Source of the DNA: a phage
NCBI GenBank assembly: GCA_017062915.1
Contig: GCA_017062915.1_4331.1
Reading direction: 5' to 3' (one strand)
DNA length: 40,644 bases
In this document: one piece after another, positions 3,670 to 36,764 of the stretch
Numbering within the stretch: the first letter of the stretch is position 1
Layout of the letters: every line of letters starts with the position of its first letter
Translations under genes and position numbers: made by a program
Notes under the pieces: generated by a model
The model's input: the letters and a program-made list of their open reading frames with translations, nothing else
Databases searched by the model: none
What the model was told of the DNA's origin: nothing

Positions 3670-5907
3670 ATGTCAAGCGGATGCGGTGACGTTTTAAGCC
3701 TGGTGGATTTACAAACCGCCAAGAAACACCAGATTTTCGAAGCCGAGGTTATCACAGGTAAATCCGGCGGCGTTGCTACGGGTGCTGATATTGATTACGC
3801 AACTAATCAGGTTACTGGTCAGACACAGAAGACGTTACCCGCCGTGTTGCGCGACGCCGGCTTTTCTCCCGTGTCGTGGGACTTTTCTACAGGCGGGACA
3901 TTAACGGTTAATGACCGAGACAAAGTAGTGTATGACCCGGTAAGTATGGCGTGGTACTCGTACGCGGGGACGTTACCAGTTACAGTTCCCGCGAGTTTTA
4001 ATCCCGTAGGTAACGCTAACTGGAGGCCACAGACCGATCCTAATTTACGTGGTGAGTTATCCATCATTGAAAACATAGCTGAGCTTATGTCTAAAACGCC
4101 AAACCCAGAACTCACGTACACCGTGAAAGGCTATGCCCCCGGTACGACTTTCGGCGGGGGCATTTTCTACTGGGACGCCACCCTCCCTAAGTCACAACAC
4201 AACGGCATCACTGTATTTAGTCCAACGGTGCCATGGGACGGAACCTACACCACTCTCGCGACCTTCTTAGCTGGCACAGGGGAAACCACCCCATCCGGCA
4301 GCGGATGCTGGGTCCGTATGCAGAACAGCCGCGACATGCTCGTTTCTTGGGGCGGCGTTGACATCACAGGGACGAACGTTGCGGACGCCGCTGTAACCGC
4401 GGTTATTAAGTATGCTAATACGGTCAAGCGTTCTGTTAGATTTGACTCTGGTGCAAATATTAAATGGGGCTTCTCTACCCTTGTCCAGCACTTTGACAAG
4501 TTCAATCTTAATGTGCAATGTTCTGTTGTTCTGGAGAATATCAGCGGGATTAAGGTTTACGCGGAGAATGACGTTGAGTTCAACACTGACCACCCTACTT
4601 ATGCGGAGCGTGTTGTCTTTCGCCTTAAAAACTGTAGCGAAGTGGAATTCTCTGGATTCAACTTCAACTCCAATTTCACCGACTATTCGACGACGACATC
4701 GGACACTACGTACAAGCCCCAAGAATGGTGGCAGGGCTTCACAGCCGAAGGTTGTTCTAATATAGAAATCACTAAGCATCACGTTAATGCGTGCCAAGTA
4801 TTTGTAAGGGCTGATTGTACAAACTTAGCAGCAAACCTTCATAACATAGATATTCATGTTACAGATAACATGTTTAAGTATGTAACGAATTACTGCGTTA
4901 TTTCCAGAAACATAAATCTGGTTGAATTCAGCCGCAACAAGGTTTCATTTAATGGGCGTAACTGGCACACATTCGGAGAGGCGTTCGCCCCTACGACAGG
5001 CTCCCTTAATATAATTGCCAAAGATAACATTTTTACTAACCAAATTGCGCAGCAGTCGTGTATTACGCCAACTCTGGGCGCTTCATCTGTAACTATTCAA
5101 GGTAATTATTGCCGCCGGCAGTATGGTATTTTTGTTGAACTCGGTAGTTCAAGCAATGTGTTAATTTCTGGTAATACATCGATAAGTACCGGTGAGCGCG
5201 CTGATACAACACACATTCTTTTGGTTGGGGCGGTAGATGGCAATCCGGCAGGTGGGCTTTCAAACGTAAACATTACCGCAAACTATTTTCAAGGCGGTGG
5301 TTTTGCCATTCAAGAATACAATACCGGAAACGCATTGCGCACTGGGTTCAGTATAACTAATAATCATATGATTGACTGCAAATTACCAGCCATCACTAAC
5401 CAATCTTACATTGGTGTTGTAGTTCGCGGTAACTATATGGAAGCACCCACTAACTTTCCTGATTTAGCTATCGCAGGACAGAGGCCTGTTATAGACGGTA
5501 ACATGTTTGTTGGTGTTAGGGTGCGTGCAAGAGATTTAGGGTATAGCGTAATAGCTCCTAAGGTAACCAACAATGTATGGAGAGCAAACTCCCTGGGGGA
5601 ATCATATCCAGCACTTATCGACTATACCGAATTCACCGCATTAGTGGCGGATGGCAACGACTCAACAGCAGCGGCGTACACGGACTTCATTGTCCACCCT
5701 TCAAATTGTAATAATGCAGGGTTCCGTAGGGTAGGCCCAACTGAAGGTTTTAGCGTTAGCCCTTCCGCTCGTTTCGGCGCTAAATTGACGGACGCGCATG
5801 TGGGCGATTTTGTGGCTAATTCATCTCCTACGGCATCGGGTACTTATGCGTGGGTATGCGTTAATCAAACAACAAAAACATTCAGTTCTATCGCATTGAG
5901 TGCATAA
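3670..5907 (+). CDS. tailspike protein with beta-helix (pectate-lyase-like) repeats
   Basis: 745 aa, RBS AGAGGA; repeated short Asn/Gly/Ile-rich beta-strand units (NIEITKHH, ISGNTSIS, ITANYFQGGG, ITNNHMIDC) typical of right-handed beta-helix depolymerases; terminal position in the tail module. Confidence 0.55.
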   Translation: MSSGCGDVLSLVDLQTAKKHQIFEAEVITGKSGGVATGADIDYATNQVTGQTQKTLPAVLRDAGFSPVSWDFSTGGTLTVNDRDKVVYDPVSMAWYSYAGTLPVTVPASFNPVGNANWRPQTDPNLRGELSIIENIAELMSKTPNPELTYTVKGYAPGTTFGGGIFYWDATLPKSQHNGITVFSPTVPWDGTYTTLATFLAGTGETTPSGSGCWVRMQNSRDMLVSWGGVDITGTNVADAAVTAVIKYANTVKRSVRFDSGANIKWGFSTLVQHFDKFNLNVQCSVVLENISGIKVYAENDVEFNTDHPTYAERVVFRLKNCSEVEFSGFNFNSNFTDYSTTTSDTTYKPQEWWQGFTAEGCSNIEITKHHVNACQVFVRADCTNLAANLHNIDIHVTDNMFKYVTNYCVISRNINLVEFSRNKVSFNGRNWHTFGEAFAPTTGSLNIIAKDNIFTNQIAQQSCITPTLGASSVTIQGNYCRRQYGIFVELGSSSNVLISGNTSISTGERADTTHILLVGAVDGNPAGGLSNVNITANYFQGGGFAIQEYNTGNALRTGFSITNNHMIDCKLPAITNQSYIGVVVRGNYMEAPTNFPDLAIAGQRPVIDGNMFVGVRVRARDLGYSVIAPKVTNNVWRANSLGESYPALIDYTEFTALVADGNDSTAAAYTDFIVHPSNCNNAGFRRVGPTEGFSVSPSARFGAKLTDAHVGDFVANSSPTASGTYAWVCVNQTTKTFSSIALSA

Positions 5908-5912
5908 AACTA

Positions 5913-5936
5913 AGGCCCCAAACGGGGCCTTTTCTC
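5913..5936. terminator. bidirectional rho-independent terminator
   Basis: Hairpin AGGCCCC-AAAC-GGGGCCT followed by TTTTCTCT; T-rich on the opposite strand as well; lies between convergent gene blocks. Confidence 0.6.
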
Positions 5937-6073
5937 TACTCTTCCGATAACTTCTCCAGTACAAACGCCAGTTGCGCATTAGCGGCGTCTCTTTGCTGCC
6001 GTAGTCGTAGAACCTCTTCCTCGAGTTCCTTGATACGTTTTTGCAATGCTGGAATTGGGGCTATGATGTTCAT
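5936..6073 (-). CDS. small coiled-coil protein (45 aa), hypothetical
   Basis: ATG overlaps the upstream stop (ATGA coupling); heptad-like QKRIKELEEEVLRLRQQ; below the ORF-track length cutoff. Confidence 0.3.
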   Translation of the reverse strand: MNIIAPIPALQKRIKELEEEVLRLRQQRDAANAQLAFVLEKLSEE

Positions 6074-13789: not shown

Positions 13790-14005
13790 ATGCAACCATC
13801 TGAACTAGGAATCCGTGTAGAGCAACGCCGTAAAGAACTCGGCATCTCCCAGCGCCGGCTGGCTGTCCTGACTGGCGTTTCCCAGGGTGCGATTAACCAG
13901 CTGGCTCTCGGTGTAACTCAGGACGTCCGCCCGGCAACGCTGTTTAAACTGGCGGAAGTGCTGGAAGTAGACGCCAAGTGGCTGGCGTTCGGTGAAGGGG
14001 CTTAA
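13790..14005 (+). CDS. XRE/Cro-type helix-turn-helix transcriptional regulator
   Basis: 71 aa; HTH signature ISQRRLAVLTGVSQGAINQLALG; RBS AAGGAG; single-gene unit ended by a terminator. Confidence 0.7.
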   Translation: MQPSELGIRVEQRRKELGISQRRLAVLTGVSQGAINQLALGVTQDVRPATLFKLAEVLEVDAKWLAFGEGA

Positions 14006-16348: not shown

Positions 16349-16639
16349 TTATCTTTTGGCCAGACATTCCATCAAATGCGCGTACTTACGGTAATAATCT
16401 ACGACAATCTCATCGCCGAAATACTGATAAATGTACGCTAAGTGGTCAGAGACACCGATGGAGGCCGACATTGTGCTGAGTCTTCGGAGACTAATCAACT
16501 GCAATTCTTCTGTAACGCAAAACGGTGAATAAGAGTCCAGCTTACAAGAAACGTTAAAGCACAACGCGTACTCGCCTTGCGCTAAATAAACCATATAAGC
16601 ATTGTCGTTCTCTTTATCGTGGAAAATTACACCTTTCAT
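16349..16639 (-). CDS. hypothetical protein
   Basis: 96-aa ORF coupled to the AlpA-like gene. Confidence 0.45.
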   Translation of the reverse strand: MKGVIFHDKENDNAYMVYLAQGEYALCFNVSCKLDSYSPFCVTEELQLISLRRLSTMSASIGVSDHLAYIYQYFGDEIVVDYYRKYAHLMECLAKR

Positions 16640-16806
16640 TTCACGTTCTCCTTAATCCACGCTTCAACTTTATTACGGTCAAATGTTCCCGGTAAACGGC
16701 GGCCCATTACTTTAACGCTGCAATCAGGAAACTTTCCACTCTTAATCCAGTTATTAATCGTCTGGCGGGTGACGCCAATTAATTCTGCGACTTCATTGAT
16801 AGTCAT
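16636..16806 (-). CDS. AlpA/excisionase-like helix-turn-helix DNA-binding protein
   Basis: MTINEVAELIGVTRQTINNWIKSGKFP is the MerR-type winged-helix pattern of AlpA/Xis regulators; start at ATG with RBS GGAG; the track's N-terminal extension (TTG start) is rejected. Confidence 0.6.
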   Translation of the reverse strand: MTINEVAELIGVTRQTINNWIKSGKFPDCSVKVMGRRLPGTFDRNKVEAWIKENVK

Positions 16807-16846
16807 TTCACGCTCTCCTGTGTAAGATGTATCGAAGTATAAGGCG

Positions 16847-16886
16847 GTAACTTTGTAAAAGCAACCAAAACCGAACACAAAGTTAC
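16847..16886. promoter_or_regulatory. inverted repeat GTAACTTTGT-N20-ACAAAGTTAC overlapping a candidate leftward promoter (TTGCTT-N17-TATACT)
   Basis: Perfect 10-bp inverted repeat; one half-site lies in the spacer of the putative promoter of the AlpA-like operon. Confidence 0.45.
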
Positions 16887-16911
16887 TAAGATACAAAAGA
16901 TGCTACTGGTA

Positions 16912-17165
16912 TTGACTTTTACTTAAAAATATGCTAAGCTTCACTGAGCTTGTGAGATATCGCAAGCGACCGCGGAGCGGCAGGGAACGCAACGCGTGCC
17001 ATTAGGCACTTGAGTGTAGTTCCGCTGGCGCTTTCGGAAGGGCCAAAGTCTATTGTTAATCCCACCTAAATACCCAAGTCACTGATAATTAAAAGTTTCT
17101 ATAGTTTCCGTGAGCAAGGTGGAAAGTACTTCACTCCGCTGGGGCGGGCTAACGCCCGCCCACTG
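16912..17165 (+). ncRNA. candidate promoter-proximal structured RNA element, copy 1
   Basis: TTGACT-N17-TAAGCT promoter (16912-16940), about 200 nt without a credible ORF, GC hairpin GGGCGGGC-TAAC-GCCCGCCC at 17142-17161; paralogous to 28022-28259. Confidence 0.4.
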
Positions 17166-17219: not shown

Positions 17220-17248
17220 TTGCACGCCCCAACATAATAGGATACTAT
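17220..17248 (+). promoter_or_regulatory. early-class promoter TTGCAC-N17-TACTAT with AATAG-N4-CTATT palindrome
   Basis: Near-identical module at 18728, 27927(-) and 36211(-); leader TTATCGAAACGAGACAGAGGAG supplies the RBS. Confidence 0.55.
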
Positions 17249-27191: not shown

Positions 27192-27652
27192 TGATGGGCT
27201 TTTTCAAAATTACTGATGTACCGTCGCGTCGCGTAGTCCAGTTTGCCCGTGTGTCTGGCTCTGGCGAGAACGTGGTGTTTATTGAAGATGAAAGTGAACT
27301 GGGTACACCGGTAGACGATATGCCGTTTGCGGATAAAACTGGCATTGCGCTGCCCGCGGCGGGTATGCTCTATGAGATTCCGTATCTGGCTGATGCAGGC
27401 GACGTGTATTTCTCTGCGCAACCGCAGGACGCTGAACTGACAGACGGCAGCGCAACTATCACTGTCGAAGTTAAGGCGGGCAAAGCACCATATGCTTTAA
27501 CATGGTACAAAGACGGAAAGGAAGTGGTAAACGCACCCGAAGAGGCCTTGTCTCTGTCGGTTAATTCTGTCGGCGAATACTTCGTTAAAGTTACTGACGC
27601 CGATGGGGTAGAGGCTGTGAGTAAAGCAGCAAAGGTTACTAAGCCAGAATGA
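27191..27652 (+). CDS. hypothetical protein with Ig-like C-terminal domain (possible capsid decoration protein)
   Basis: C-terminal beta-rich repeat-like segment (ITVEVKAGKAPYALTWYKDGKEV...YFVKVTDADGVEAV). Confidence 0.35.
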   Translation: MMGFFKITDVPSRRVVQFARVSGSGENVVFIEDESELGTPVDDMPFADKTGIALPAAGMLYEIPYLADAGDVYFSAQPQDAELTDGSATITVEVKAGKAPYALTWYKDGKEVVNAPEEALSLSVNSVGEYFVKVTDADGVEAVSKAAKVTKPE

Positions 27653-27656
27653 TAAA

Positions 27657-27682
27657 AGGCCCCTTACGGGGCCTTAGTTTTA
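27657..27682. terminator. bidirectional rho-independent terminator
   Basis: AGGCCCC-TTAC-GGGGCCT flanked by T-rich sequence on both strands; between convergent genes. Confidence 0.6.
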
Positions 27683-27892
27683 TTCATGCGTCGCTGCTCT
27701 AAAATTAAGTTCTTCACGAGGGATAAAACCTCTATCAGTTTTTACGTAACAAGTTGTGTAACTGTACATTACCTCTCTGCCTGTGATATCTCCGTAGTTC
27801 TCACACTCGTGTTTATCTAAGCTGCGTACACCAACAGCAGTTACCAGTAAAACCGCCGATACCGTCAATACCGCTTTAATTAAGTCTTTCAT
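27680..27892 (-). CDS. small secreted protein (signal peptide plus about 45-aa two-Cys domain), accessory gene
   Basis: N-terminal MKDLIKAVLTVSAVLLVTAVGVRS signal-like segment; own early-class promoter; reverse orientation inside the forward late block. Confidence 0.5.
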   Translation of the reverse strand: MKDLIKAVLTVSAVLLVTAVGVRSLDKHECENYGDITGREVMYSYTTCYVKTDRGFIPREELNFRAATHE

Positions 27893-27926
27893 CTTTAAAT
27901 TCCTTATCTCTCGTTTCGATAACTGA

Positions 27927-27955
27927 ATAGTACCCTATTATATTGGTGTCTGCAA
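27927..27955 (-). promoter_or_regulatory. early-class promoter TTGCAG-N17-TACTAT with AATAG-N4-CTATT palindrome
   Basis: Same module and leader (TTATCGAAACGAGAGATAAGGA) as the promoter at 17220. Confidence 0.55.
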
Positions 27956-28021
27956 ACTATTTGTTTACGTATTACAGTTATTCCTCCTAATTGTAAATGT
28001 TGGAATAAACTATTCGAATAG

Positions 28022-28259
28022 TTGACTTTTCACTAAAAATATGCTAAGCTCCACCTGAGCTTGTGAAGTATGAACAAGCGACCGCGGCGCGGGCAGGTAA
28101 CGGAGCGGGACGTAAGTCATGAGTGTAGTTACGCTGACGCGTTCGGAAGGGCCATACTCTATTGCTTGTGTAAAAAGTAACTGGTTTACTGAGATTACGC
28201 CGTTTCTATGTTTAAATGATAAGGACTAGCGCCCCGCTTTAAGGCGGGGCTTTACTTAT
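28022..28259 (+). ncRNA. candidate promoter-proximal structured RNA element, copy 2
   Basis: TTGACT-N17-TAAGCT promoter (28022-28050), conserved core shared with copy 1, intrinsic terminator GCCCCGC-TTTAAG-GCGGGGC plus T-tract at 28231-28259. Confidence 0.4.
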
Positions 28260-28274
28260 CGAGAAAGGAGAAAC

Positions 28275-28661
28275 ATGAATCTTAAAGCAACTGTCGTAGC
28301 GGGAGCATGTTTCATCGTCCTGTTATATGCACACGGCATCTACCAGTACCGCGTCGGCTGGAACGAAGGCCGGGCGAATATCATTTCGCAGCAACAGCAG
28401 AAAGCACAGGCTGAGTTAGCGAAGAAAACACAACGGCAGCAGCAGGACGAATCAAAGGCCGCAGCCGCTGACAACGAAGGCAAGACGAAATCAGAGGTGA
28501 TTACCCGTGAAGTCGTTAAGTACATTAGAACGCCTGGTCGCAGCGTGTGCACTTTCGATGATGCTCGCGTCCTGCTCAAGTCCCGTGCCATCGCAAACGC
28601 CAATTCCATCCCCGGATACGACGATGATGCAGCCGCCATGCAAGCTGGCTCTGCCAAGTAG
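28275..28661 (+). CDS. inner-membrane spanin (Rz-like)
   Basis: N-terminal TM segment, Gln/Ala-rich coiled-coil region, RBS AAAGGAG; contains an embedded lipoprotein gene in another frame. Confidence 0.6.
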   Translation: MNLKATVVAGACFIVLLYAHGIYQYRVGWNEGRANIISQQQQKAQAELAKKTQRQQQDESKAAAADNEGKTKSEVITREVVKYIRTPGRSVCTFDDARVLLKSRAIANANSIPGYDDDAAAMQAGSAK

Positions 28662-28770
28662 AGACGCTGACGAGGATTTGGCTATTGACGTCCAGAACGC
28701 CGAATGTGTACGGCAACTGCGCCTGAAAGTATTCCAGTTGCAGGATTATGTGAGGAATATTCTGGAATAG
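28507..28770 (+). CDS. outer-membrane spanin lipoprotein (Rz1-like), overlapping the Rz-like gene
   Basis: Lipoprotein signal with lipobox LASC, Pro-rich mature region; overlapping out-of-frame arrangement typical of Rz/Rz1. Confidence 0.55.
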   Translation: MKSLSTLERLVAACALSMMLASCSSPVPSQTPIPSPDTTMMQPPCKLALPSRDADEDLAIDVQNAECVRQLRLKVFQLQDYVRNILE

Positions 28771-28799
28771 TTGCCTTGCATGTTGGAATAATTTATTCT
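28771..28799 (+). promoter_or_regulatory. candidate promoter TTGCCT-N17-TATTCT upstream of the scaffold/capsid genes
   Basis: Shares AATAGTTG and ATGTTGGAATAA blocks with the region upstream of ncRNA copy 2; followed by leader hairpin TCCGGG-TGG-CCCGGA. Confidence 0.35.
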
Positions 28800-28849
28800 T
28801 TACATGTAAATCCGGGTGGCCCGGATTCCAACGTCCAGGGGACATACTG

Positions 28850-29476
28850 ATGAGCGAAGAAGTGAAAGACGAAACTATCGAACAACAAGAGCCTAAGACC
28901 ACGTTCACTAAAGAAGAAGTTGACGCGCTGGTATCTGGTCTTAAAGCTAACAACGAGAAACTCTTGTCTGAAAAGAAAGCCGCTGCCGCTGCTGCTAAAG
29001 AAGCCGCAGATGCGAAGCTGAAAGCCGAGCAAGAACGTGCTAAGCAGAACGGCGAACTTGAGGCATTCGAGAAAACGTTGCGCAGTCAGTATGAGCCTGT
29101 ACTCGCTGAGAAAGACGGCAAGATTAGCAAGATGGCGGAGCGTATCCTCGGCGCAGAACGTAAATCAGTTATCAGCCAGTTGTCTGGCATGTTGATTGAC
29201 GAGAGCGCAGCAGATATCATCGCTATGATGGTTAAGACCGAATTCGATGGCGACGACGTCGTTACTAAGTTCACCGGTGCAGACGGCAACGTCATCACCA
29301 CCGACGCAGAACAATTTAAAAAGTATCTGCGTGAGCACAAAGCATTCTCGCATCTCATTAAAGCAGACGCAGCAACCGGCGGCGGGGCTTCCGGTAACAA
29401 AAATTCTACTGGCGGGGCCGGTGGTACGGACGTAATCCAGCAAAAACTTAACGCCAAATACGGCAAACGAGGATAA
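28850..29476 (+). CDS. scaffolding protein (putative)
   Basis: 208 aa, acidic N-terminus, Ala/Lys/Glu-rich helical region, Gly-rich C-terminal tail; immediately upstream of the capsid gene. Confidence 0.5.
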   Translation: MSEEVKDETIEQQEPKTTFTKEEVDALVSGLKANNEKLLSEKKAAAAAAKEAADAKLKAEQERAKQNGELEAFEKTLRSQYEPVLAEKDGKISKMAERILGAERKSVISQLSGMLIDESAADIIAMMVKTEFDGDDVVTKFTGADGNVITTDAEQFKKYLREHKAFSHLIKADAATGGGASGNKNSTGGAGGTDVIQQKLNAKYGKRG

Positions 29477-29482
29477 CAGAAT

Positions 29483-30451
29483 ATGTCTCTGTCAGATATG
29501 AATGTTTATAACGACGATATCGTCGGCACTACTATCGAATTGCTCGGTCAGAAAACTGACCAGTTCAACGCAGCTTCTGGTGGTGCAATTGTACTGTCTA
29601 CCGCTTCATGGCGCGGTGACTTCTCCCGCGAGTCTTTCTTTAACCAGATTGCCTCTGCTAAACGTCGTGTTGACCGTTACGCGGCTATCGCATCTCAGGC
29701 CGCTACCGCGCTGACCCAGGGTGAACATGTTGGCGTTAAAGTAGCAGGCGGCTTTGGCCCCGTTCTGTTCGAACCAGCACAGATGACCTGGCTGAACGAA
29801 GACCCGGCAAGCGCGATTCGTGCTATTTCAGAAGGTTTCTCCGACGCGCTGTTAGCCGACCAGCTTAACACCGCTGTTGGTGCTGCCGTTGCTGCGGTAT
29901 CAGGCCAGACTGCACTGGTTAACGACGTATCTGCGTCCGCCGGCCTGTCACTGAACGTACTGAACAACAGCCACGCAAAATTTGGTGACCAGTCTCAGTT
30001 GCTGATTACTGACATCATGACCGGTGCTGCTTACCACACCCTGGTAGACAAAGCGCTGACCAACGCAAACCAGTTGTTCGTTGCCGGTAACGTTATGGTT
30101 GTTGATGTCCTCGGCAAGCGTTATGTAATCTCCGACATCCCAGCGCTGTACGAAGCAGGTACGCCGAACAAGACCAAGGTCCTGTCCGTAGTTGCGAATG
30201 GCATCATCGTTGATAATGCTTCCGACATTATCAGCAACATCGATACCAGCAACGGCAACACCCGCATCCAGACCACCTGGCAGGCGGACTACAGTTTCGG
30301 CCTGAAACTGAAAGGCTATAGCTGGGATGTAACAAACGGCGGTAAATCTCCGCTGGACGCTGAACTGTTCACCGCGTCCAACTGGGACAAAGCTGTTGCC
30401 GAGAACAAGCACACTCTCGGTACTCTGGCAATCGCCGACGCGGACCTGTAA
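29483..30451 (+). CDS. major capsid protein
   Basis: 322 aa, strong RBS GAGGA, followed directly by a terminator (high-expression context); position after the scaffold gene. Confidence 0.6.
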   Translation: MSLSDMNVYNDDIVGTTIELLGQKTDQFNAASGGAIVLSTASWRGDFSRESFFNQIASAKRRVDRYAAIASQAATALTQGEHVGVKVAGGFGPVLFEPAQMTWLNEDPASAIRAISEGFSDALLADQLNTAVGAAVAAVSGQTALVNDVSASAGLSLNVLNNSHAKFGDQSQLLITDIMTGAAYHTLVDKALTNANQLFVAGNVMVVDVLGKRYVISDIPALYEAGTPNKTKVLSVVANGIIVDNASDIISNIDTSNGNTRIQTTWQADYSFGLKLKGYSWDVTNGGKSPLDAELFTASNWDKAVAENKHTLGTLAIADADL

Positions 30452-30472
30452 TACGGTTGATGGTAAAAACAA

Positions 30473-30493
30473 AGGGGCTACGGCCCCTTTTTA
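30473..30493 (+). terminator. rho-independent terminator after the capsid gene
   Basis: AGGGGC-TACG-GCCCCT followed by TTTTT. Confidence 0.6.
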
Positions 30494-30508
30494 CTAGGAG
30501 AAATTAAA

Positions 30509-30676
30509 GTGGAAATTAAATACGTACCTATGCCTATTACCGTAGAACAGAAGCGGGAGTACAACCGTCAAGGTTTCCGTGTGGTAGATGCACGTTTCGC
30601 ACCCGAAGGCACCGTGATAGAATCGACTAAAGAAGAAACACCACGCCGCCAGCGCCGGGCGAAGTCTGAGGAATAA
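30509..30676 (+). CDS. small hypothetical protein (55 aa)
   Basis: GTG start with RBS AGGAG at 8 nt; fills the gap before the next gene. Confidence 0.35.
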   Translation: MEIKYVPMPITVEQKREYNRQGFRVVDARFAPEGTVIESTKEETPRRQRRAKSEE

Positions 30677-30679
30677 TTT

Positions 30680-31192
30680 ATGCCGCTAATCGTGGAAGAC
30701 GGGTCAATAGTCCCGAATGCTGACAGTTACGTTAGCCTGGCTGACGCCCGCGCGTTAGCGGCTAATTACGGTCTTGAGCTACCGGCAGACGATACTGATG
30801 CCGAAGTAGCCCTGCGAAATGGCGCTACGTATGTCGGCCTGTCCGAACCGCAGATGTGCGGTCGCCGTGTGTCAGCCGAGCAGTCACTGGCGTACCCACG
30901 TACAGGAACAACCCTGAACGGCTTCCCTGTGGCGAACAATGTAATTCCTAAGCAGGTAATTCTCGCACAGGTAATCGCCGCGGTAACATACGGTTCCGGT
31001 ACAGAGGTACGCGCCAACTCAGACGGGCGTTCAGTACAGACTGAGCGCGTAGAGGGCGCGGTAACCGTTACCTACTTCAACAACGGCAGTTCTGGAGCCA
31101 CTACATCAATCACCGCAGCCGATGACGCCTTACGCCCGCTTCTTTGCGGTGGTCTTAACAATGGCTTCTCGTTTAACGTGTACCGGGGCTAA
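30680..31192 (+). CDS. head-tail connector / head completion protein (putative)
   Basis: Position between the capsid and major tail genes; 170 aa. Confidence 0.4.
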   Translation: MPLIVEDGSIVPNADSYVSLADARALAANYGLELPADDTDAEVALRNGATYVGLSEPQMCGRRVSAEQSLAYPRTGTTLNGFPVANNVIPKQVILAQVIAAVTYGSGTEVRANSDGRSVQTERVEGAVTVTYFNNGSSGATTSITAADDALRPLLCGGLNNGFSFNVYRG

Positions 31193-31194
31193 AA

Positions 31195-31821
31195 ATGGCG
31201 AAGACTAAAACAGAGATATTTACACTAATTGGGTCTGAATTACCAGATAACACAACCGGGCTAATCACCCCGGAGAAGTTACGCGGTGTTCTTACCCAAA
31301 TGGCCGACTCACCTATTTATGCCACTCCCGGCGTGAAAGAGGTTGAGGTGCTACGCGCCGCGTCTACTGTCACCCAGGCTCCGTCCGCGGTCGATACCGC
31401 GTTGCAACTAACCTTCGGTGCTGCGCAAGGTAGCGCCTCCGACCCTGTTATGATTAACGCGGCGGGTCTGGTAACTTTCAACACGGCTGGTAACTATGCC
31501 GTTCGCATTAAGCTACAGGCGTGGCGCACTGGGGCCAGCGGCACGTCTATCCTGTTATCCCGTATTCTGGTAAACGGCGCTCAGTATGGCTCACCGGCAG
31601 CTACGAAACTGGTTAGCGCGGAAACTACCAGTCCCATTGAATCGCGTGTAGTGATTAACCCAACAGCCGGACAAACATTTGCGGTTCAGATTATGCGGGA
31701 TAGCGCCGGGACAAACTTCGGTGGCGTATACCCGCAAGCCGCAACCGTAACCGCATGGGGTACCGCATGGGGTACCGCACCTTCGGCTTTACTGGTTATC
31801 TCGATACTGGAGGCTGCGTAA
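31195..31821 (+). CDS. head-tail joining protein (putative)
   Basis: 208 aa; contains a tandem 12-bp coding repeat (AWGTAWGT). Confidence 0.4.
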   Translation: MAKTKTEIFTLIGSELPDNTTGLITPEKLRGVLTQMADSPIYATPGVKEVEVLRAASTVTQAPSAVDTALQLTFGAAQGSASDPVMINAAGLVTFNTAGNYAVRIKLQAWRTGASGTSILLSRILVNGAQYGSPAATKLVSAETTSPIESRVVINPTAGQTFAVQIMRDSAGTNFGGVYPQAATVTAWGTAWGTAPSALLVISILEAA

Positions 31822-32180
31822 TGAGCACCGCCTTTAGTAAACGTATGCAGGGCGTGGGGACACGCCTGCTAACCAAATTCGGCAGCACGGTATCTCTGGT
31901 TCGCGCTGGCTCGAAAGTGTGGGATGAAGTTCTCGGCGAATACGTCTGGTCGGACGATGAAGTGCTGCCGTTGAAAGCGGTTCCCGTTCCTGTTAATGCC
32001 GGTTTAATTAACGGCACAACCGCTCAGGCCGGAGACATGATTGTTAAAGCGGATTACAGCGTCGTTCCGAAGATGGAAGACAAGGTGCAATTCGGCGGTG
32101 AGCAGTGGTCTGTTGTAGCCATCGAGAAGAAGATGGTTAACGATGACGTTGTGGCTTATTTCATTCAGGTGAGAAAATGA
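31821..32180 (+). CDS. head-tail joining protein (putative)
   Basis: Start at ATG MSTAFSK overlapping the previous stop; the track ORF begins earlier at 31755. Confidence 0.4.
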   Translation: MSTAFSKRMQGVGTRLLTKFGSTVSLVRAGSKVWDEVLGEYVWSDDEVLPLKAVPVPVNAGLINGTTAQAGDMIVKADYSVVPKMEDKVQFGGEQWSVVAIEKKMVNDDVVAYFIQVRK

Positions 32181-32572
32181 GTTTCGCGCTTGATGTATCA
32201 AAGTTCGTCGAGAAGGCGAAGAAGAACCCTGAAACGGTGATGCGTCAGGTGTCTATCAAGCTGTTTTCCGCTATTATAAAGGCGAGTCCGGTGGACACCG
32301 GGCGTTTTCGTATGAACTGGATGCCATCCGGCGGAACTCCGGCTTCTGGTACTACAGATGCTACCGACAAATCGGGAAACACCGCGACCGGAAACGCCAC
32401 TAGTTTCGTGCTGAAAGCCGCCGACTGGAAGGAGTTCACGCTGACTAATAACCTGCCGTATGCACAACGGCTGGAGTACGGTTGGTCGCAACAGGCCCCG
32501 CAAGGCATGGTCAGGACTAACGTGTCACGCTTCCAGCAACTAATTAATGAAGAAGCCAACAAGGTGAAATGA
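32177..32572 (+). CDS. tail completion protein (putative)
   Basis: 131 aa, coupled. Confidence 0.4.
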   Translation: MSFALDVSKFVEKAKKNPETVMRQVSIKLFSAIIKASPVDTGRFRMNWMPSGGTPASGTTDATDKSGNTATGNATSFVLKAADWKEFTLTNNLPYAQRLEYGWSQQAPQGMVRTNVSRFQQLINEEANKVK

Positions 32573-32985
32573 TGGGCTACTTTGAGGACTTAACCAAAGC
32601 GTTCGACGTGCCGCTGGTAGCCTTCGGAAACACCAACGGCATCAAAGTTGCGCTTGAGAATATCGACGCCCCAACGTCAACTGATACTCCGTATCTGGCT
32701 AGCTACATGCTACTGGCGGATACCGAGCAGGCCGACTTATTTTTCACAGAGCAACGCGCCGGTGTTTATCAGGTGGACATTAACTACGCATCGGTGAAAG
32801 GTAGCGCGCCAATCAATAAAATGGCAGACTTACTTAACACGGCATTCAAAGCAGGTAAGTCTTTTTCACGTAACGACATCTGCGCCGAAGTGCAATCGGT
32901 TAGCCTGGGGCCGCTGATTGTAGAAAATGGATGGGCCAAACGACCATTATCAATTAACTTTATTGCATTCACCAAGAGGCTGTGA
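32569..32985 (+). CDS. tail terminator / completion protein (putative)
   Basis: 138 aa, coupled. Confidence 0.4.
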   Translation: MMGYFEDLTKAFDVPLVAFGNTNGIKVALENIDAPTSTDTPYLASYMLLADTEQADLFFTEQRAGVYQVDINYASVKGSAPINKMADLLNTAFKAGKSFSRNDICAEVQSVSLGPLIVENGWAKRPLSINFIAFTKRL

Positions 32986-32987
32986 AT

Positions 32988-34154
32988 ATGGCTACAACTC
33001 CTTTTAAGGGCGCGAATACCGCGCAATTCTATGTGGCGGAAACTACCCCGGGCGTGACACCGACTTCCCCGGTATGGTCGCCGTTGCGTAACACTGGCGG
33101 CGTTCCCGCGGTAACCCGCGACGCGCTGACCTCCAACGAACTGGACGGCAGCCGTGAAACCACGTCTATCCGCACCGGCAACAAACAGGTAACAGGTGAA
33201 TACGCCATTGAGCTTAGCTCAAAAAGTCAGGATGATTTCCTCGCCGGTGCGATGACATCTACGTGGCAGGCTGGCGTCGAGATTACTGGCGCGGAAATTA
33301 CTGTAGCCCCGGTTGGTAAAACGTTCACCCGCGCAACCGGTAGCTTCATTACCGACGGCGTTGAAGTTGGCGACCTGATTGCGTTCACCGGACTGACGGG
33401 CGATAACACTAAACCGTTCATCGTCACCGAAGTTTCCGCTCTTGTTGTAACAGGTGCGGGAGTTCAGCACACACTGACCGCAGAAACCGTAACTACCGAT
33501 GCAAAAACCGGCGACAAGCTGGAAACTGGTAACGCGTGTAAGACGTTCTCTATCCTGACCTGGTTCAAAGGCCAGTGCGGAAACCCTGACGCGTACATGC
33601 TGACCAAAGGTGTAGAAATCTCTGGTTTCACCATCGAGCAGGCGGTTAATGCGATGGTCACGGGCAGCTTCCCGTTCATCGGCCTGAGCCAGGAGATTCT
33701 TACGGCCCCTCCGGCTGGTTCCGACTTCTCTCAGGTTACGTTTACCGATGAGCCGTTCTCTTCGGTTGATGTGTCAGTGTTCGACGGTACGTCGCCGTTG
33801 CGTTGCGACACGCTGACCATTACCAACGACAACGGTGCTTCCGCCCAGTTCGAACTCGGCAACAGTAACGTAGCGTTCGTTGAACGAGGCCGCGCGGCAA
33901 ACACCTTCTCCATCTCCGGCAAGCTGTACGACATGGCTATGATTCAGAAGTTTATCAACGAGCAACAGGTAGAGATTAACTCTATTCTGGCGGGGGTAAA
34001 CGGGGCTATGTCATTCAGCCTGAAACGTGCCGAGTTGACCGCAGTTACACCGGAGATTGGCGGGCCAGAGTCAATCACTCAGTCTATTGAAGGCCAGGCA
34101 ACCGGCAACCAGTATCAGTCGTCTATCGTAATTCAGCGCATCACCTACGCATAA
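32988..34154 (+). CDS. major tail (tube) protein
   Basis: About 389 aa, RBS AAGAGG 8 nt before the ATG (MATTPFKG); last gene of the head-tail block, followed by a strong terminator. Confidence 0.55.
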   Translation: MATTPFKGANTAQFYVAETTPGVTPTSPVWSPLRNTGGVPAVTRDALTSNELDGSRETTSIRTGNKQVTGEYAIELSSKSQDDFLAGAMTSTWQAGVEITGAEITVAPVGKTFTRATGSFITDGVEVGDLIAFTGLTGDNTKPFIVTEVSALVVTGAGVQHTLTAETVTTDAKTGDKLETGNACKTFSILTWFKGQCGNPDAYMLTKGVEISGFTIEQAVNAMVTGSFPFIGLSQEILTAPPAGSDFSQVTFTDEPFSSVDVSVFDGTSPLRCDTLTITNDNGASAQFELGNSNVAFVERGRAANTFSISGKLYDMAMIQKFINEQQVEINSILAGVNGAMSFSLKRAELTAVTPEIGGPESITQSIEGQATGNQYQSSIVIQRITYA

Positions 34155-34159
34155 AACTA

Positions 34160-34184
34160 AGGCCCCTTTCGGGGCCTTTTTCTT
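34160..34184. terminator. bidirectional rho-independent terminator
   Basis: AGGCCCC-TTTC-GGGGCCT with T-runs on both strands; separates the major tail gene from the convergent accessory cassette. Confidence 0.65.
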
Positions 34185-34593
34185 ATTCATCAATATTATT
34201 CCTGTACTCTCGTAACTTCTCCAGACTTTCTATAGCCTCGTCTAAGTCCGTGCCTGTGTCCTTGTGCCCGCGCAACCCCATACATAACAGCTTTTTCAAT
34301 GCGTGTTGTAGCGCCGGGTCGCGGATGTCGAAAGCACGTAGCACATCATAGACGTCAACAGTCATTGTGCTGCCGTGTGTATTTGTCATGGTTCTGTCGT
34401 ATTTATTGACTTCCTTAAAGCGTGCGATACCTGATTCGGTAATGTTACCAATACAGAAGTAGGAACTATACTTAGTAGAGTACATCATCACATCTCCGTT
34501 GGGCGTGACTACTCCGTCATACACGACGCCTACTTTGAACCCGTTGCATTCCGCGTAAGGACTTACTGCGGTACATTCGTATTTTGAAGTCAT
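34183..34593 (-). CDS. hypothetical protein with DUF3310-like C-terminal region
   Basis: 136 aa; C-terminal DVYDVLRAF...ALQHALKKLL..GLRG.KD...DLDEAIESL resembles the DUF3310 phage pattern (from memory). Confidence 0.4.
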   Translation of the reverse strand: MTSKYECTAVSPYAECNGFKVGVVYDGVVTPNGDVMMYSTKYSSYFCIGNITESGIARFKEVNKYDRTMTNTHGSTMTVDVYDVLRAFDIRDPALQHALKKLLCMGLRGHKDTGTDLDEAIESLEKLREYRNNIDE

Positions 34594-36239: not shown

Positions 36240-36347
36240 GTAATGTGATAGAATAATTTTGCGCCTAGTGTCGCACACGAAAAGCGGGTGGTTCCCGTCT
36301 GGCGCATTTACCATTAACCTGTAACCTCTTAACCAAAGGATTAAAGA

Positions 36348-36764
36348 ATGAAACTTTCTGATTTTTATTACGAAGCTGAGGCAGAAAAAGGCGCCCGTAT
36401 GCCGATACCACTGAAAGACGGCACCGATTCAGGGGAGTGGCTGAACGTTGTTTCACCGGAGGCAGACGTTGCTGTTAAAGCTATGAGGGCGTTTACACTT
36501 GCGTACCGCGCGGCATTAGGTAAATTGAAACCGCTTCGCGATAAATGCGAGGAACTGAAAGATTTCTCGGAATACAACATCAAGATGGAAGACGCCGCAA
36601 CGGACCTTAACCGCCAGTTAGCGCTTGAACTGGTTAACGGTTGGAGTCTCGACGATGAATTTAATAAAGAGAACCTGAATACTCTTTTCTCACAATATAA
36701 ACGACTCGCTGAACACGTTGTTGTTTTCCACAATGAACAGCTTCACCAATTGCAGGAAAAGTAG
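36348..36764 (+). CDS. tail assembly chaperone
   Basis: 138 aa directly upstream of the tape measure gene; RBS AAAGGA. Confidence 0.5.
   Translation: MKLSDFYYEAEAEKGARMPIPLKDGTDSGEWLNVVSPEADVAVKAMRAFTLAYRAALGKLKPLRDKCEELKDFSEYNIKMEDAATDLNRQLALELVNGWSLDDEFNKENLNTLFSQYKRLAEHVVVFHNEQLHQLQEK

What the first reader, a model, noticed from the sequence alone, without database searches (positions are those of the whole stretch)
28022..28259. Paralogous noncoding element, copy 2, upstream of the spanin and capsid genes, with a compensatory hairpin change
Copy 2 has the same promoter (TTGACT-N17-TAAGCT) and ends in a clean intrinsic terminator (GCCCCGC-TTTAAG-GCGGGGC plus T-tract) just before the Rz-like gene. 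Between conserved blocks, copy 1 has the hairpin GTGCC-ATTA-GGCAC where copy 2 has GAC-GTAA-GTC: a different sequence but the same stem with a 4-nt loop, which points to selection on RNA structure. The conserved block can be read as a short ORF in copy 2 (MSVVTLTRSEGP...), but differences between copies fall on first and second codon positions and the frame stops early in copy 1, arguing against a peptide.
Basis: partly seen in the sequence, partly recalled or inferred. Interest (0 to 1): 0.7.

Follow-up and report, generated by a model that had tools for sequence, protein, structure and literature searches.

The report
Conserved structured leader RNA of Guernseyvirinae phages
Between a strong host-type promoter and a terminator just upstream of the phage's lysis and capsid genes lies a roughly 200-base non-coding RNA whose two-hairpin fold is preserved by compensatory mutations; it matches no described RNA family, and its most likely job is to control how much transcription reads through into the late genes.

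Summary
The window is a Kagunavirus (Guernseyvirinae) genome. Copy 2 (28022-28259) and copy 1 (16912-about 17165) share an extended -10 sigma-70 promoter, TTGACT-N17(TGn)-TAAGCT. This promoter is invariant in 50 of 50 distinct homologues.

Both copies also share a 107-nt RNA core that starts at +3. It consists of hairpin P1, a GA linker, a long irregular hairpin P2 and a conserved tail, AAGGGCC..UCUAUU. In 38 distinct sequences, 97.7% of the proposed pairs form, against 32-42% when the pairs are slid. Eight pairs show compensatory changes, and G-U pairs fix the strand.

Both candidate ORFs fail. The other frame is broken by 1-nt indels and shows 16 non-synonymous against 2 synonymous changes.

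Copy 2 ends in a real intrinsic terminator and no promoter follows it, so every late-operon transcript must carry this leader. Copy 1 is an optional paralogue, present in about a quarter of relatives, and its 3' hairpin has no U-tract.

There is no match in Rfam, in host genomes or in the literature searched.

The function is inferred, not shown. My best guess (0.38) is a cis-acting leader that modifies elongating RNA polymerase to read through terminators, like the HK022 put RNA. A free-standing trans-acting sRNA is nearly as likely.

The parts
28010..28030 (.). Perfect palindrome CTATTCGAATAG (28010-28021), plus a degenerate copy of the phage operator motif (AATAG-TTGA-CTTTT, 28017-28030) that overlaps the -35. 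This is a possible regulator site. It is present at copy 2 only.
   Evidence: The sequence is conserved in copy-2 loci. Its role is inferred.
28022..28027 (+). -35 hexamer TTGACT of the copy-2 promoter.
   Evidence: TTGACT is present in 49 of 50 distinct homologues.
28042..28050 (+). Extended -10, TGc-TAAGCT, with a 17-nt spacer.
   Evidence: TG, TAAGCT and the 17-nt spacer are present in 50 of 50. The n of TGn varies as C36/A9/G5.
28057..28163 (+). RNA core. The predicted 5' end is G28057, 7 nt after the -10. The core comprises P1, the GA linker, P2 and the tail.
   Evidence: Covariance model R1 scores 123 bits, E 6e-29. Covariation is shown. The transcription start site is inferred, not measured.
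28059..28079 (+). P1 hairpin GCUUGU..ACAAGC. In other types it is extended to 8 bp with a 4-nt loop.
   Evidence: 100% of cells are paired, and the U-A/U-G alternation is at the sixth pair.
28082..28146 (+). P2 long irregular hairpin. From base to tip: basal helix CCG[C]GGxGCG/CGCyUUCGG, CAG/CUG, bulged G, GUAAC/GUUAC, an internal loop, and the apical hairpin.
   Evidence: The x:y pair occurs as CG25/UA9/AU3 and the inner pair as UA22/AU11/GC5. The helix is 96.8% paired.
28108..28119 (+). Apical hairpin G-GAC-GUAA-GUC-A. In relatives it is GGAC-GUAA-GUCC. All four pairs covary across types.
   Evidence: helix 4, 98.7% paired, 4 of 4 pairs with double changes. The window-specific A at 28119 is shown.
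28120..28127 (+). Conserved 3' side of the internal loop, UGAGUGUA.
   Evidence: It is nearly invariant in alignments A2 and A4. Its role is unknown.
28147..28163 (+). Conserved tail AAGGGCCAUACUCUAUU at the foot of P2. It may form a 4-bp mini-hairpin, P3.
   Evidence: It is conserved in all types. The motif CGGAAGGGYC..UCU is also found in Cornellvirus leaders. P3 is 89.9% paired and weakly supported.
28164..28228 (+). A/U-rich middle segment containing the block ACUGAnAnU...GUUUCUAUGUU that is shared with copy 1.
   Evidence: Median identity is 100% in 36 loci, higher than the adjacent spanin gene.
28229..28259 (+). Intrinsic terminator: the GC hairpin at 28231-28250 plus UUUACUUAU. The stem can extend to 28217-28261.
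   Evidence: dG -16.1, or -22.3 for the extended stem. The loop is variable and the stem shows one compensatory change.
28265..28661 (+). Shine-Dalgarno AAGGAG and the Rz-like spanin gene (ATG at 28275), the first gene of the late operon that runs to the terminator at 34159-34178.
   Evidence: No promoter lies between the terminator and this gene.
27916..27944 (+). Upstream operator-type promoter TCGATA-N17-TATATT with AATAG-N4-CTATT in its spacer. Its transcripts would also run through the element.
16912..16940 (+). Copy-1 promoter TTGACT-N17(TGc)-TAAGCT.
16946..17054 (+). Copy-1 RNA core, type A: P1 16948-16967, P2 16970-17037, apical hairpin 16996-17009, tail 17038-17054.
   Evidence: R1 scores 100.9 bits.
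17141..17161 (+). Copy-1 3' GC hairpin GGGGCGGGC-UAAC-GCCCGCCC with no U-tract. Relatives have the compensatory form GGGGUGGGC/GCCCACCC.
   Evidence: dG -24.1; T score 0.76.
17220..17248 (+). Operator-type promoter TTGCAC-N17-TACTAT, lying between copy 1 and the early genes.

Best explanation
The element is a promoter-to-terminator module encoding a structured RNA that forms the obligatory 5' leader of the late (spanin-scaffold-capsid-tail) operon. In this phage a second paralogue sits ahead of the early operon.

Host RNA polymerase starts at the extended -10 promoter. The first 107 nt fold as they emerge into P1 and P2 around an invariant junction (GA-CCG...CGG-AAGGGCC).

I propose that this junction stays bound to the transcribing polymerase, either alone as the HK022 put RNA does or with an unidentified host or phage factor. 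Binding would make the polymerase resistant to the terminator 70 nt downstream and to later terminators such as the one after the capsid gene. Polymerases that are not modified would stop at 28250-28259 and release an RNA of about 195 nt.

Shown: the promoter, the fold, the terminator, the absence of any other route into the operon, and the non-coding nature. Inferred: the 5' end, binding to polymerase, and the antitermination itself.
For: - Promoter architecture is conserved in 50 of 50 homologues.
- The fold is supported by covariation and is strand-specific through G-U pairs. Every sequence type gives the same MFE architecture.
- The terminator is real and its stem is under selection.
- The operon upstream ends at a bidirectional terminator (27656-27675) and is followed by a convergent gene. 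No promoter lies in the 25 nt between the terminator and the spanin ribosome-binding site. All late transcription must therefore pass through the element and its terminator.
- A further strong terminator lies inside the operon after the capsid gene.
- Conservation is concentrated at the P1/P2 junction and tail, while distal parts vary freely. The put RNA, which contacts polymerase with residues from both stems, would show the same pattern (PMC9378689).
- The layout parallels put: two paralogous copies just downstream of strong promoters, each with two adjacent stem-loops (PMC9378689).
- No Q- or N-type antiterminator was found among 30 phage proteins.
- Related genera carry other structured leaders at the same site. 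These share the junction motif but have no U-tract, so there the RNA is necessarily a 5' leader.
Against: - There is no experimental evidence of read-through or of polymerase binding.
- The whole unit, including the 65-nt middle segment, is more conserved than the flanking genes, which suits a discrete RNA product equally well.
- At the early-operon site the cassette is followed by a separate operator-type promoter. The early genes therefore do not need read-through, and copy 1 is dispensable in about three quarters of relatives.
- Several internal terminators in the early operon are followed by further operator-type promoter sites, which lessens the need for processive antitermination.
- The terminator stem can extend to about 17 bp, and long stems are reported to resist antitermination in another system (PMC10325885).
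- There is no similarity to put RNA.
Confidence: 0.38

Rival explanations
1. It is a free-standing, abundant small RNA of about 195 nt running from promoter to terminator, and it acts in trans. It could sequester a host or phage protein, counter a host defence, or base-pair with targets. Late-gene expression would then simply reflect leakage through its terminator.
For: - The unit has its own strong promoter and a genuine terminator.
- The whole unit is more conserved than its neighbours: median 97-100%, against 91.5% for the spanin gene.
- Promoter plus core moves as a cassette between two genomic slots. The early slot holds unrelated promoter-RNA-terminator cassettes in other phages.
- The early genes have their own promoter downstream of copy 1.
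- The two copies in one genome always differ in P2, in 22 of 22 genomes. That could mean two specificities.
Against: - Copy 1 and the Cornellvirus-type leaders lack a U-tract, so they are not discrete terminated transcripts unless they are processed.
- No complementary target for the conserved single-stranded motifs was found in the phage genome.
- The U-tract is short for a classical Hfq-dependent sRNA.
- The late operon has no promoter of its own.
Confidence: 0.28
2. It is a 5'-UTR stability or processing module. The 5'-terminal P1 hairpin would protect the mRNA from 5'-end-dependent decay. The long P2 and/or the extended 3' hairpin would be RNase III sites that set the half-life or separate the leader from the mRNA.
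For: - P1 starts 2 nt from the predicted 5' end.
- P2 is a helix of about 20 bp with an internal loop, and the 3' hairpin can extend to 17-19 bp in all leader families. These resemble the T7 and lambda RNase III sites, a comparison I make from memory.
Against: - Simple stabiliser hairpins do not need invariant junction and tail sequences or a conserved internal loop.
- RNase III sites tolerate sequence change, yet here many unpaired positions are fixed.
- This reading does not explain the terminator.
Confidence: 0.14
3. It is a factor- or ligand-sensing attenuator. A phage or host protein, or a small molecule, would bind the core and switch the downstream terminator on or off. The small alternative hairpin CCGC-GGN-GCGG, which competes with the base of P2, might serve as the switch.
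For: - The alternative hairpin can form in 99.3% of cells, and one lineage (L051) keeps it through a double change.
- An operator-like site overlaps the copy-2 -35, which hints at temporal control.
Against: - The core lies 70 nt from the terminator and no convincing anti-terminator pairing was found.
- The alternative hairpin is only 4 bp and is supported by a single evolutionary event.
- Relatives lack the terminator.
- No riboswitch family matches.
Confidence: 0.1
4. It encodes a micropeptide, either the reader's MSVVTLTRSEGP... (28119-28229) or the 36-aa MNKRPRRGQ... that is annotated in some records (28070-28180).
For: The second ORF is annotated as a hypothetical protein in Bas70 and other records. 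Its ATG is present in most copy-2 sequences.
Against:
- The second frame is cut to 9-17 aa by 1-nt indels in four copy-2 variants, and copy-1 type A has no start codon for it.
- Substitutions are 16 non-synonymous to 2 synonymous, with codon positions 9/7/2.
- Neither ORF has a Shine-Dalgarno sequence.
- The indels fall at bulges of the RNA structure.
Confidence: 0.02
5. It is a DNA-level element, such as a replication origin activated by transcription, a packaging site, or a protein-binding palindrome, and not a functional RNA.
For: - There are palindromes around the promoter (28010-28021, and AAGCTC-N5-GAGCTT at 28046-28062), as well as CCGCG-N-CGCGG.
- The A/T-rich segment after the core resembles an unwinding element.
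Against: - Many conserved pairs are G-U (for example 34 of 37 at one pair). On the other strand these would be C-A mismatches, so the structure is specific to one strand of RNA.
- Covariation extends over helices 60 nt apart.
Confidence: 0.05

Closest known systems
HK022 put RNAs (putL, putR): factor-independent, cis-acting processive antiterminator RNAs
   Same: - Two paralogous copies, each just downstream of a strong sigma-70 promoter at the head of a long operon.
- Two adjacent stem-loops.
- The copies differ in sequence but keep the fold.
- Terminators lie downstream.
- No dedicated antiterminator protein is recognisable for these operons.
- Conservation is concentrated where the two stems meet.
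   Different: - There is no sequence or structure similarity. Model R1 finds nothing in the HK022 genome.
- The core is about 107 nt against about 70 nt for put.
- P2 is much longer and has an internal loop and a conserved 3' tail.
- The host phage is a virulent siphovirus, not a lambdoid.
- One copy is optional.
- Activity and dependence on the beta' zinc-binding domain are untested.
Lambda PR'-qut-tR' late leader (6S RNA) with Q antitermination
   Same: A strong constitutive promoter is followed by a terminated leader of about 195 nt, placed directly upstream of the lysis and head genes. Late expression requires read-through.
   Different: No Q homologue was found. Q recognises DNA and a sigma-dependent pause, not a conserved RNA fold, whereas here the RNA fold is what is under selection.
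Lambda nutL/nutR (boxA + boxB) with N and Nus factors
   Same: There are two copies at the heads of operons. A conserved linear motif sits next to hairpins that vary between relatives.
   Different: There is no boxA consensus and no N-like protein was recognised. The position in the tail that would correspond to a fixed boxA base varies freely.
EAR, conAn2 and Tn916 canT leader RNAs (processive antitermination in Gram-positive elements)
   Same: A structured leader RNA lies between a promoter and the first terminator of a long operon on a mobile element (PMC8191782, PMC11658703).
   Different: The hosts and sequences are unrelated, and some of these systems need a partner protein. None matches in Rfam.
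T7 and lambda RNase III processing hairpins
   Same: They are long irregular hairpins with an internal loop in phage leader or intercistronic RNA.
   Different: Those sites lack the invariant junction and tail and are not tied to a promoter-proximal position. I recalled this resemblance from memory and did not test it.

Membership tests
Sigma-70 extended -10 promoter | A -35 hexamer, a spacer of about 17 bp, a TG one base upstream of the -10, and a -10 hexamer with A at position 2 and T at position 6. | tested here: met
   TTGACT occurs in 49 of 50. The 17-nt spacer, TG and TAAGCT each occur in 50 of 50, and the base between TG and the -10 varies freely. Activity was not measured.
Intrinsic (Rho-independent) terminator | A GC-rich hairpin immediately followed by a U-tract. 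| tested here: met
   Copy 2 has an 8-bp stem (dG -16.1) followed by UUUACUUAU. The stem shows a compensatory change and the loop is variable. Copy 1's hairpin fails this test: it has no U-tract and a T score of 0.76.
Structured non-coding RNA | Base pairs maintained by compensatory substitutions, and strand specificity. | tested here: met
   97.7% of cells are paired, against 32-42% when slid. Eight pairs have double changes. The covariation score is 0.250 against 0.091, exceeded by 0 of 500 shuffles. G-U pairs are frequent. The MAFFT-only alignment gives the same result.
HK022 put RNA family | Homology to putL/putR in sequence and fold. | tested here: not met
   R1 finds no match at E<=10 in the HK022 genome. 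There is no Rfam hit of any kind.
HK022 put RNA family | Two adjacent stem-loops transcribed just downstream of an early promoter, present as two paralogous copies. | tested here: met
   P1 and P2 are separated by GA and start at +3, and there are two copies. This is a resemblance in layout only.
HK022 put RNA family | Cis-acting suppression of downstream terminators and pauses, and dependence on the RNA polymerase beta' zinc-binding domain. | not testable with these tools
   This needs in vitro transcription or reporter assays, and rpoC mutants.
Lambda Q-type late antitermination | A Q-family protein encoded by the phage. | tested here: not met
   A Pfam scan of 30 proteins found no Q or other antiterminator family. 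It found only HTH regulators, a NinH-like protein and DUFs. A divergent factor cannot be excluded.
Lambda nut sites | A boxA consensus (CGCUCUUA / UGCUCUUUA) next to a boxB hairpin, together with an N protein. | tested here: not met
   The tail ..AUAnUCUAUU has only a partial likeness to boxA, and the key preceding base varies among C, G, U and A. No N-like protein was recognised.
Small protein-coding gene | A conserved start codon, a conserved reading frame, and synonymous-biased substitution. | tested here: not met
   In frame A the ATG is present in 1 of 50. Frame B is broken by 1-nt indels and absent from copy-1 type A, and it shows 16 non-synonymous against 2 synonymous changes.
Any Rfam 15 family | A score at or above the gathering threshold. 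| tested here: not met
   The window has no hit at gathering threshold. The best permissive hits have E about 1 and are unrelated. The alternative leaders of relatives are also unmatched.

The most novel reading that the evidence does not exclude
This would be a new class of promoter-proximal RNA, unrelated in sequence to put, that binds E. coli or Salmonella RNA polymerase without any phage protein and makes it terminator-resistant. It would be carried by virulent Guernseyvirinae phages as a portable promoter-plus-RNA cassette that is swapped between the heads of the early and late operons. The two copies in one genome would be kept divergent in sequence but identical in fold.
Probability: 0.22. 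Interest if true: 0.75.

Novelty: new variant of a known kind. Interest (0 to 1): 0.5.

Why it matters
Guernseyvirinae (Kagunavirus and Jerseyvirus) are widely isolated and are used as therapeutic and biocontrol phages against E. coli K1 and Salmonella. How they regulate transcription is essentially unknown.

This RNA is among the best-conserved segments of their genomes, and it sits on the only route into the capsid and tail operon. Current annotations either leave it blank or call spurious small proteins across it.

If it is a polymerase-modifying antiterminator, it would be only the second factor-independent class known after put, and a compact part for synthetic biology. If it is a trans-acting RNA, it would be an abundant, very early phage product whose target is unknown. 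Either way it gives a defined and easily mutated handle on late gene expression in these phages.

Tried and rejected
- Rfam, at gathering and at permissive thresholds, on both copies and on the alternative leaders of relatives: nothing.
- Host origin or mimicry: no match in 5,426 complete E. coli genomes. The only plasmid-collection hit is a 44-kb phage-sized record.
- Trans targets: no complement to the conserved unpaired motifs in the phage genome other than the element's own antisense strand. This is a weak test, and host targets were not searched.
- Peptide readings in both frames: rejected.
- A kissing interaction between the P1 loop (AGUAUG) and the tail (CAUACU): rejected, because the tail position varies without compensation.
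- P3 mini-hairpin in the tail: only weakly supported.
- Alternative hairpin CCGC-GGN-GCGG: it can form nearly everywhere but is supported by a single double change. It is left unexplained.
- Homology to put: none.
- Q, N and other antiterminator proteins: none recognised.
- boxA, the RfaH ops element, CsrA GGA sites and sigma-dependent pause elements: checked by eye, and none is conserved.
- A syntenic relative outside the subfamily (Serratia phage Smarc3) has no room for the element upstream of its spanin gene.
- Literature: no paper mentions a non-coding RNA in these phages. The one transcriptome paper reports genes only. King 2011 on put-like RNAs could not be read.

Full report
**What is there**

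The window is a nearly complete genome of a Kagunavirus-type siphophage (Guernseyvirinae). The 401 bases around the finding match 184 phage records from Escherichia, Salmonella, Raoultella and Shigella hosts, mostly at 95-99% identity.

- TTGACT lies at 28022-28027. A 17-nt spacer follows, whose last three bases are TGc, making this an extended -10 promoter. TAAGCT is at 28045-28050.
- The hairpin GCCCCGCU-UUAA-GGCGGGGC is at 28231-28250, followed by UUUACUUAU.
- The Shine-Dalgarno sequence and the ATG (28275) of the Rz-like spanin gene come next.
- The second copy starts at 16912 with the same promoter. These are the only two matches in the window.
- The two copies align over about 240 nt.

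**The RNA fold**

Exact-pattern scans of IMG/VR and of metagenomes, followed by a covariance model (R1) built here, gave 38 distinct versions of the first 107 transcribed bases. They fall into at least six sequence types.

Every type folds on its own into the same shape.
- P1 is a hairpin beginning two bases from the predicted 5' end.
- A GA linker follows.
- P2 is a long irregular hairpin. From base to tip it has the basal helix CCG[C]GGxGCG/CGCyUUCGG, then CAG/CUG, a bulged G, GnAAC/GUUnC, an internal loop whose 3' side UGAGUGUA is conserved, and an apical 4-5-bp stem with a 4-nt loop.
- The tail AAGGGCC-AUAn-UCUAUU closes the core.

On the model-fitted alignment 97.7% of cells form standard pairs, against 32-42% when the 3' partners are slid by 1-3 columns. 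Eight pairs carry changes on both sides, and the covariation score is 0.250 against 0.091 in shuffles, exceeded by 0 of 500. A plain MAFFT alignment, which is not fitted to the structure, gives the same verdict.

The x:y pair occurs as C-G, U-A and A-U. The inner pair occurs as U-A, A-U and G-C. All four apical pairs covary.

Many conserved pairs are G-U. On the other strand they would be C-A mismatches, so the fold belongs to the + strand RNA.

**Not a peptide**

Forty-nine of 50 distinct homologues have CTG, TTG, CCG or TGG there, and the same change removes a pair of the apical hairpin.

A second ORF in another frame (ATG at 28070, 36 aa) is annotated as a hypothetical protein in several GenBank records.
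- It is cut to 9-17 aa by single-base indels in four copy-2 variants.
- It has no start codon in copy-1 type A.
- It shows 16 non-synonymous against 2 synonymous substitutions and no third-position bias.
- The indels fall at bulges of the RNA.

**Promoter and terminator**

In 50 distinct full-length instances the -35 is TTGACT in 49. The spacer is 17 nt, TG is present and the -10 is TAAGCT in all 50. The base between TG and the -10 varies as C36/A9/G5, as expected for a real extended -10 promoter.

The copy-2 terminator stem is kept, including one compensatory CCCUGC/GCAGGG variant. Its loop varies and its U-tract is invariant. The flanks can extend the stem to 28217-28261.

Copy 1's hairpin (17141-17161) also shows a compensatory change against relatives, but it has no U-tract. 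It is followed by a separate promoter at 17220-17248.

**Context**

The operon upstream of copy 2 ends at a bidirectional terminator (27656-27675), and a convergent small gene follows (27680-27892). Between the copy-2 terminator and the spanin ribosome-binding site there are 25 nt and no promoter.

The late operon runs from spanin through scaffold, capsid, connector and major tail genes (28275-34154). It can therefore only be transcribed through this element, either from its own promoter or from the operator-type promoter at 27916-27944. A further strong terminator sits just after the capsid gene.

The promoter-to-terminator unit is better conserved across 36 loci (median 97-100%) than the spanin gene (91.5%), the upstream spacer (85%) or the scaffold gene (69%).

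**Distribution and modularity**

Of the 181 Kagunavirus and Jerseyvirus records that match the core, all carry at least one copy, at the copy-2 site in every listed record. Only about 43 have a second match.
- Phages without copy 1, such as Bas70, carry an unrelated promoter-RNA-terminator cassette in that slot. Its 3' half is widely conserved.
- In all 22 genomes with two copies the cores are only 81-87% identical.
- A core type found at the early slot in one phage occurs at the late slot in another.
- Cornellvirus-type relatives (SP-031, phiEap-2, TS33) and the Shemara/St162/TS6 group have other structured leaders upstream of spanin. These reuse pieces of the same kit: GACCGCGCGGAAGGGYC..UCU, the GUAAC..GUAA-loop..GUUAC hairpin, AUAGUCUAUU, and the 3' hairpin with loop CGCUUUAAGGC. 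None has a U-tract.
- A syntenic Serratia phage outside the subfamily has no room for the element.
- Nothing similar was found in Rfam, in E. coli genomes or in the searchable literature.

**How it most likely works**

Three things are established: the RNA is non-coding, its fold is under selection, and it is the obligatory leader of the late operon. Its function is inferred.

The layout is a strong promoter, a structured RNA at the very 5' end, a terminator, and a long operon with further terminators. Processive antitermination systems have this layout. The closest parallel is HK022 put, with its two paralogous two-hairpin RNAs just downstream of early promoters, acting in cis on RNA polymerase without a phage protein (PMC9378689).

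Two observations fit. Invariance is concentrated at the junction while the distal parts are free to vary, and no recognisable Q or N protein was found. I rate this reading at about 0.38.

Several observations cut the other way.
- The whole unit is conserved.
- The early genes have a separate promoter.
- Copy 1 is optional.
- There is no similarity to put.

A free-standing trans-acting RNA of about 195 nt is therefore nearly as likely (0.28). Lesser alternatives are a stability or RNase III processing role (0.14) and a factor-sensing attenuator (0.10).

**Verdict**

It is an undescribed structured RNA family at a regulatory choke point of a much-used phage group. Interest is moderate for now, and would be higher if polymerase-directed antitermination is shown.

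Noticed in passing
window 7903, 11386, 13702, 13746, 17236, 18744, 20699, 26109, 27926, 28017, 36210: The palindromic motif AATAG-N4-CTATT occurs 11 times, against 1 expected. It lies in the spacer of sigma-70-like promoters at the heads of most operons on both strands, so it looks like an operator for a phage HTH regulator (candidates are 13790-14005 and 16636-16896). One paper calls it a 'phage RNA polymerase promoter', although these phages encode no RNA polymerase.
   Followed up: partly
window 28010-28030: The perfect palindrome CTATTCGAATAG is centred near -41.5 of the copy-2 promoter. A degenerate operator copy (AATAGTTGACTTTT) overlaps its -35. Copy 1 has neither, so the two copies may be regulated differently.
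   Followed up: no
   Followed up: yes
window 28082-28093 (and L051 4365-4375): The 5' strand of basal P2 (CCGCGGCGCGG) can also fold on itself as CCGC-GGN-GCGG, which excludes P2. One lineage keeps this small hairpin or palindrome by a double change (CCGUGUCACGG) that weakens P2. Cornellvirus has the collapsed palindrome CCGCGCGG. It could be a folding intermediate, a switch or a DNA site.
   Followed up: partly
window 28046-28062: The inverted repeat AAGCTC-N5-GAGCTT runs from the -10 hexamer to +6. In transcripts that start upstream it would compete with P1. It may also explain the unusual TAAGCT -10.
   Followed up: no
window 30474-30494: There is a strong intrinsic terminator (GGGGC-UACG-GCCCC-UUUUUAC) immediately after the major capsid gene, inside the late operon.
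   Followed up: partly
window 5902-5944, 27646-27688, 34149-34191: Three related bidirectional terminators (AAGGCCCC-loop-GGGGCCTT) lie at points where convergent transcription units meet.
   Followed up: no
L004, L013, L024, L048, L053 (copy-1 3' parts): A (CTCA)n microsatellite with about 3 to 7 units lies in the 3' half of type-B early leaders. One type-A variant has (GTGA)n at the same place.
   Followed up: no
L043 (Bas70) 36258-36625 and 5282-5392: GenBank records annotate small 'hypothetical proteins' across both leader RNAs, on either strand. These are probably spurious calls.
   Followed up: partly
L043 36300-36560; L063-L065: The early-operon slot of Bas70 and the spanin slot of Shemara, St162 and TS6 share a different promoter module (TTGACAC-N7-TGTATAATG). 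This suggests that the two slots exchange promoter-leader cassettes across the subfamily.
   Followed up: partly
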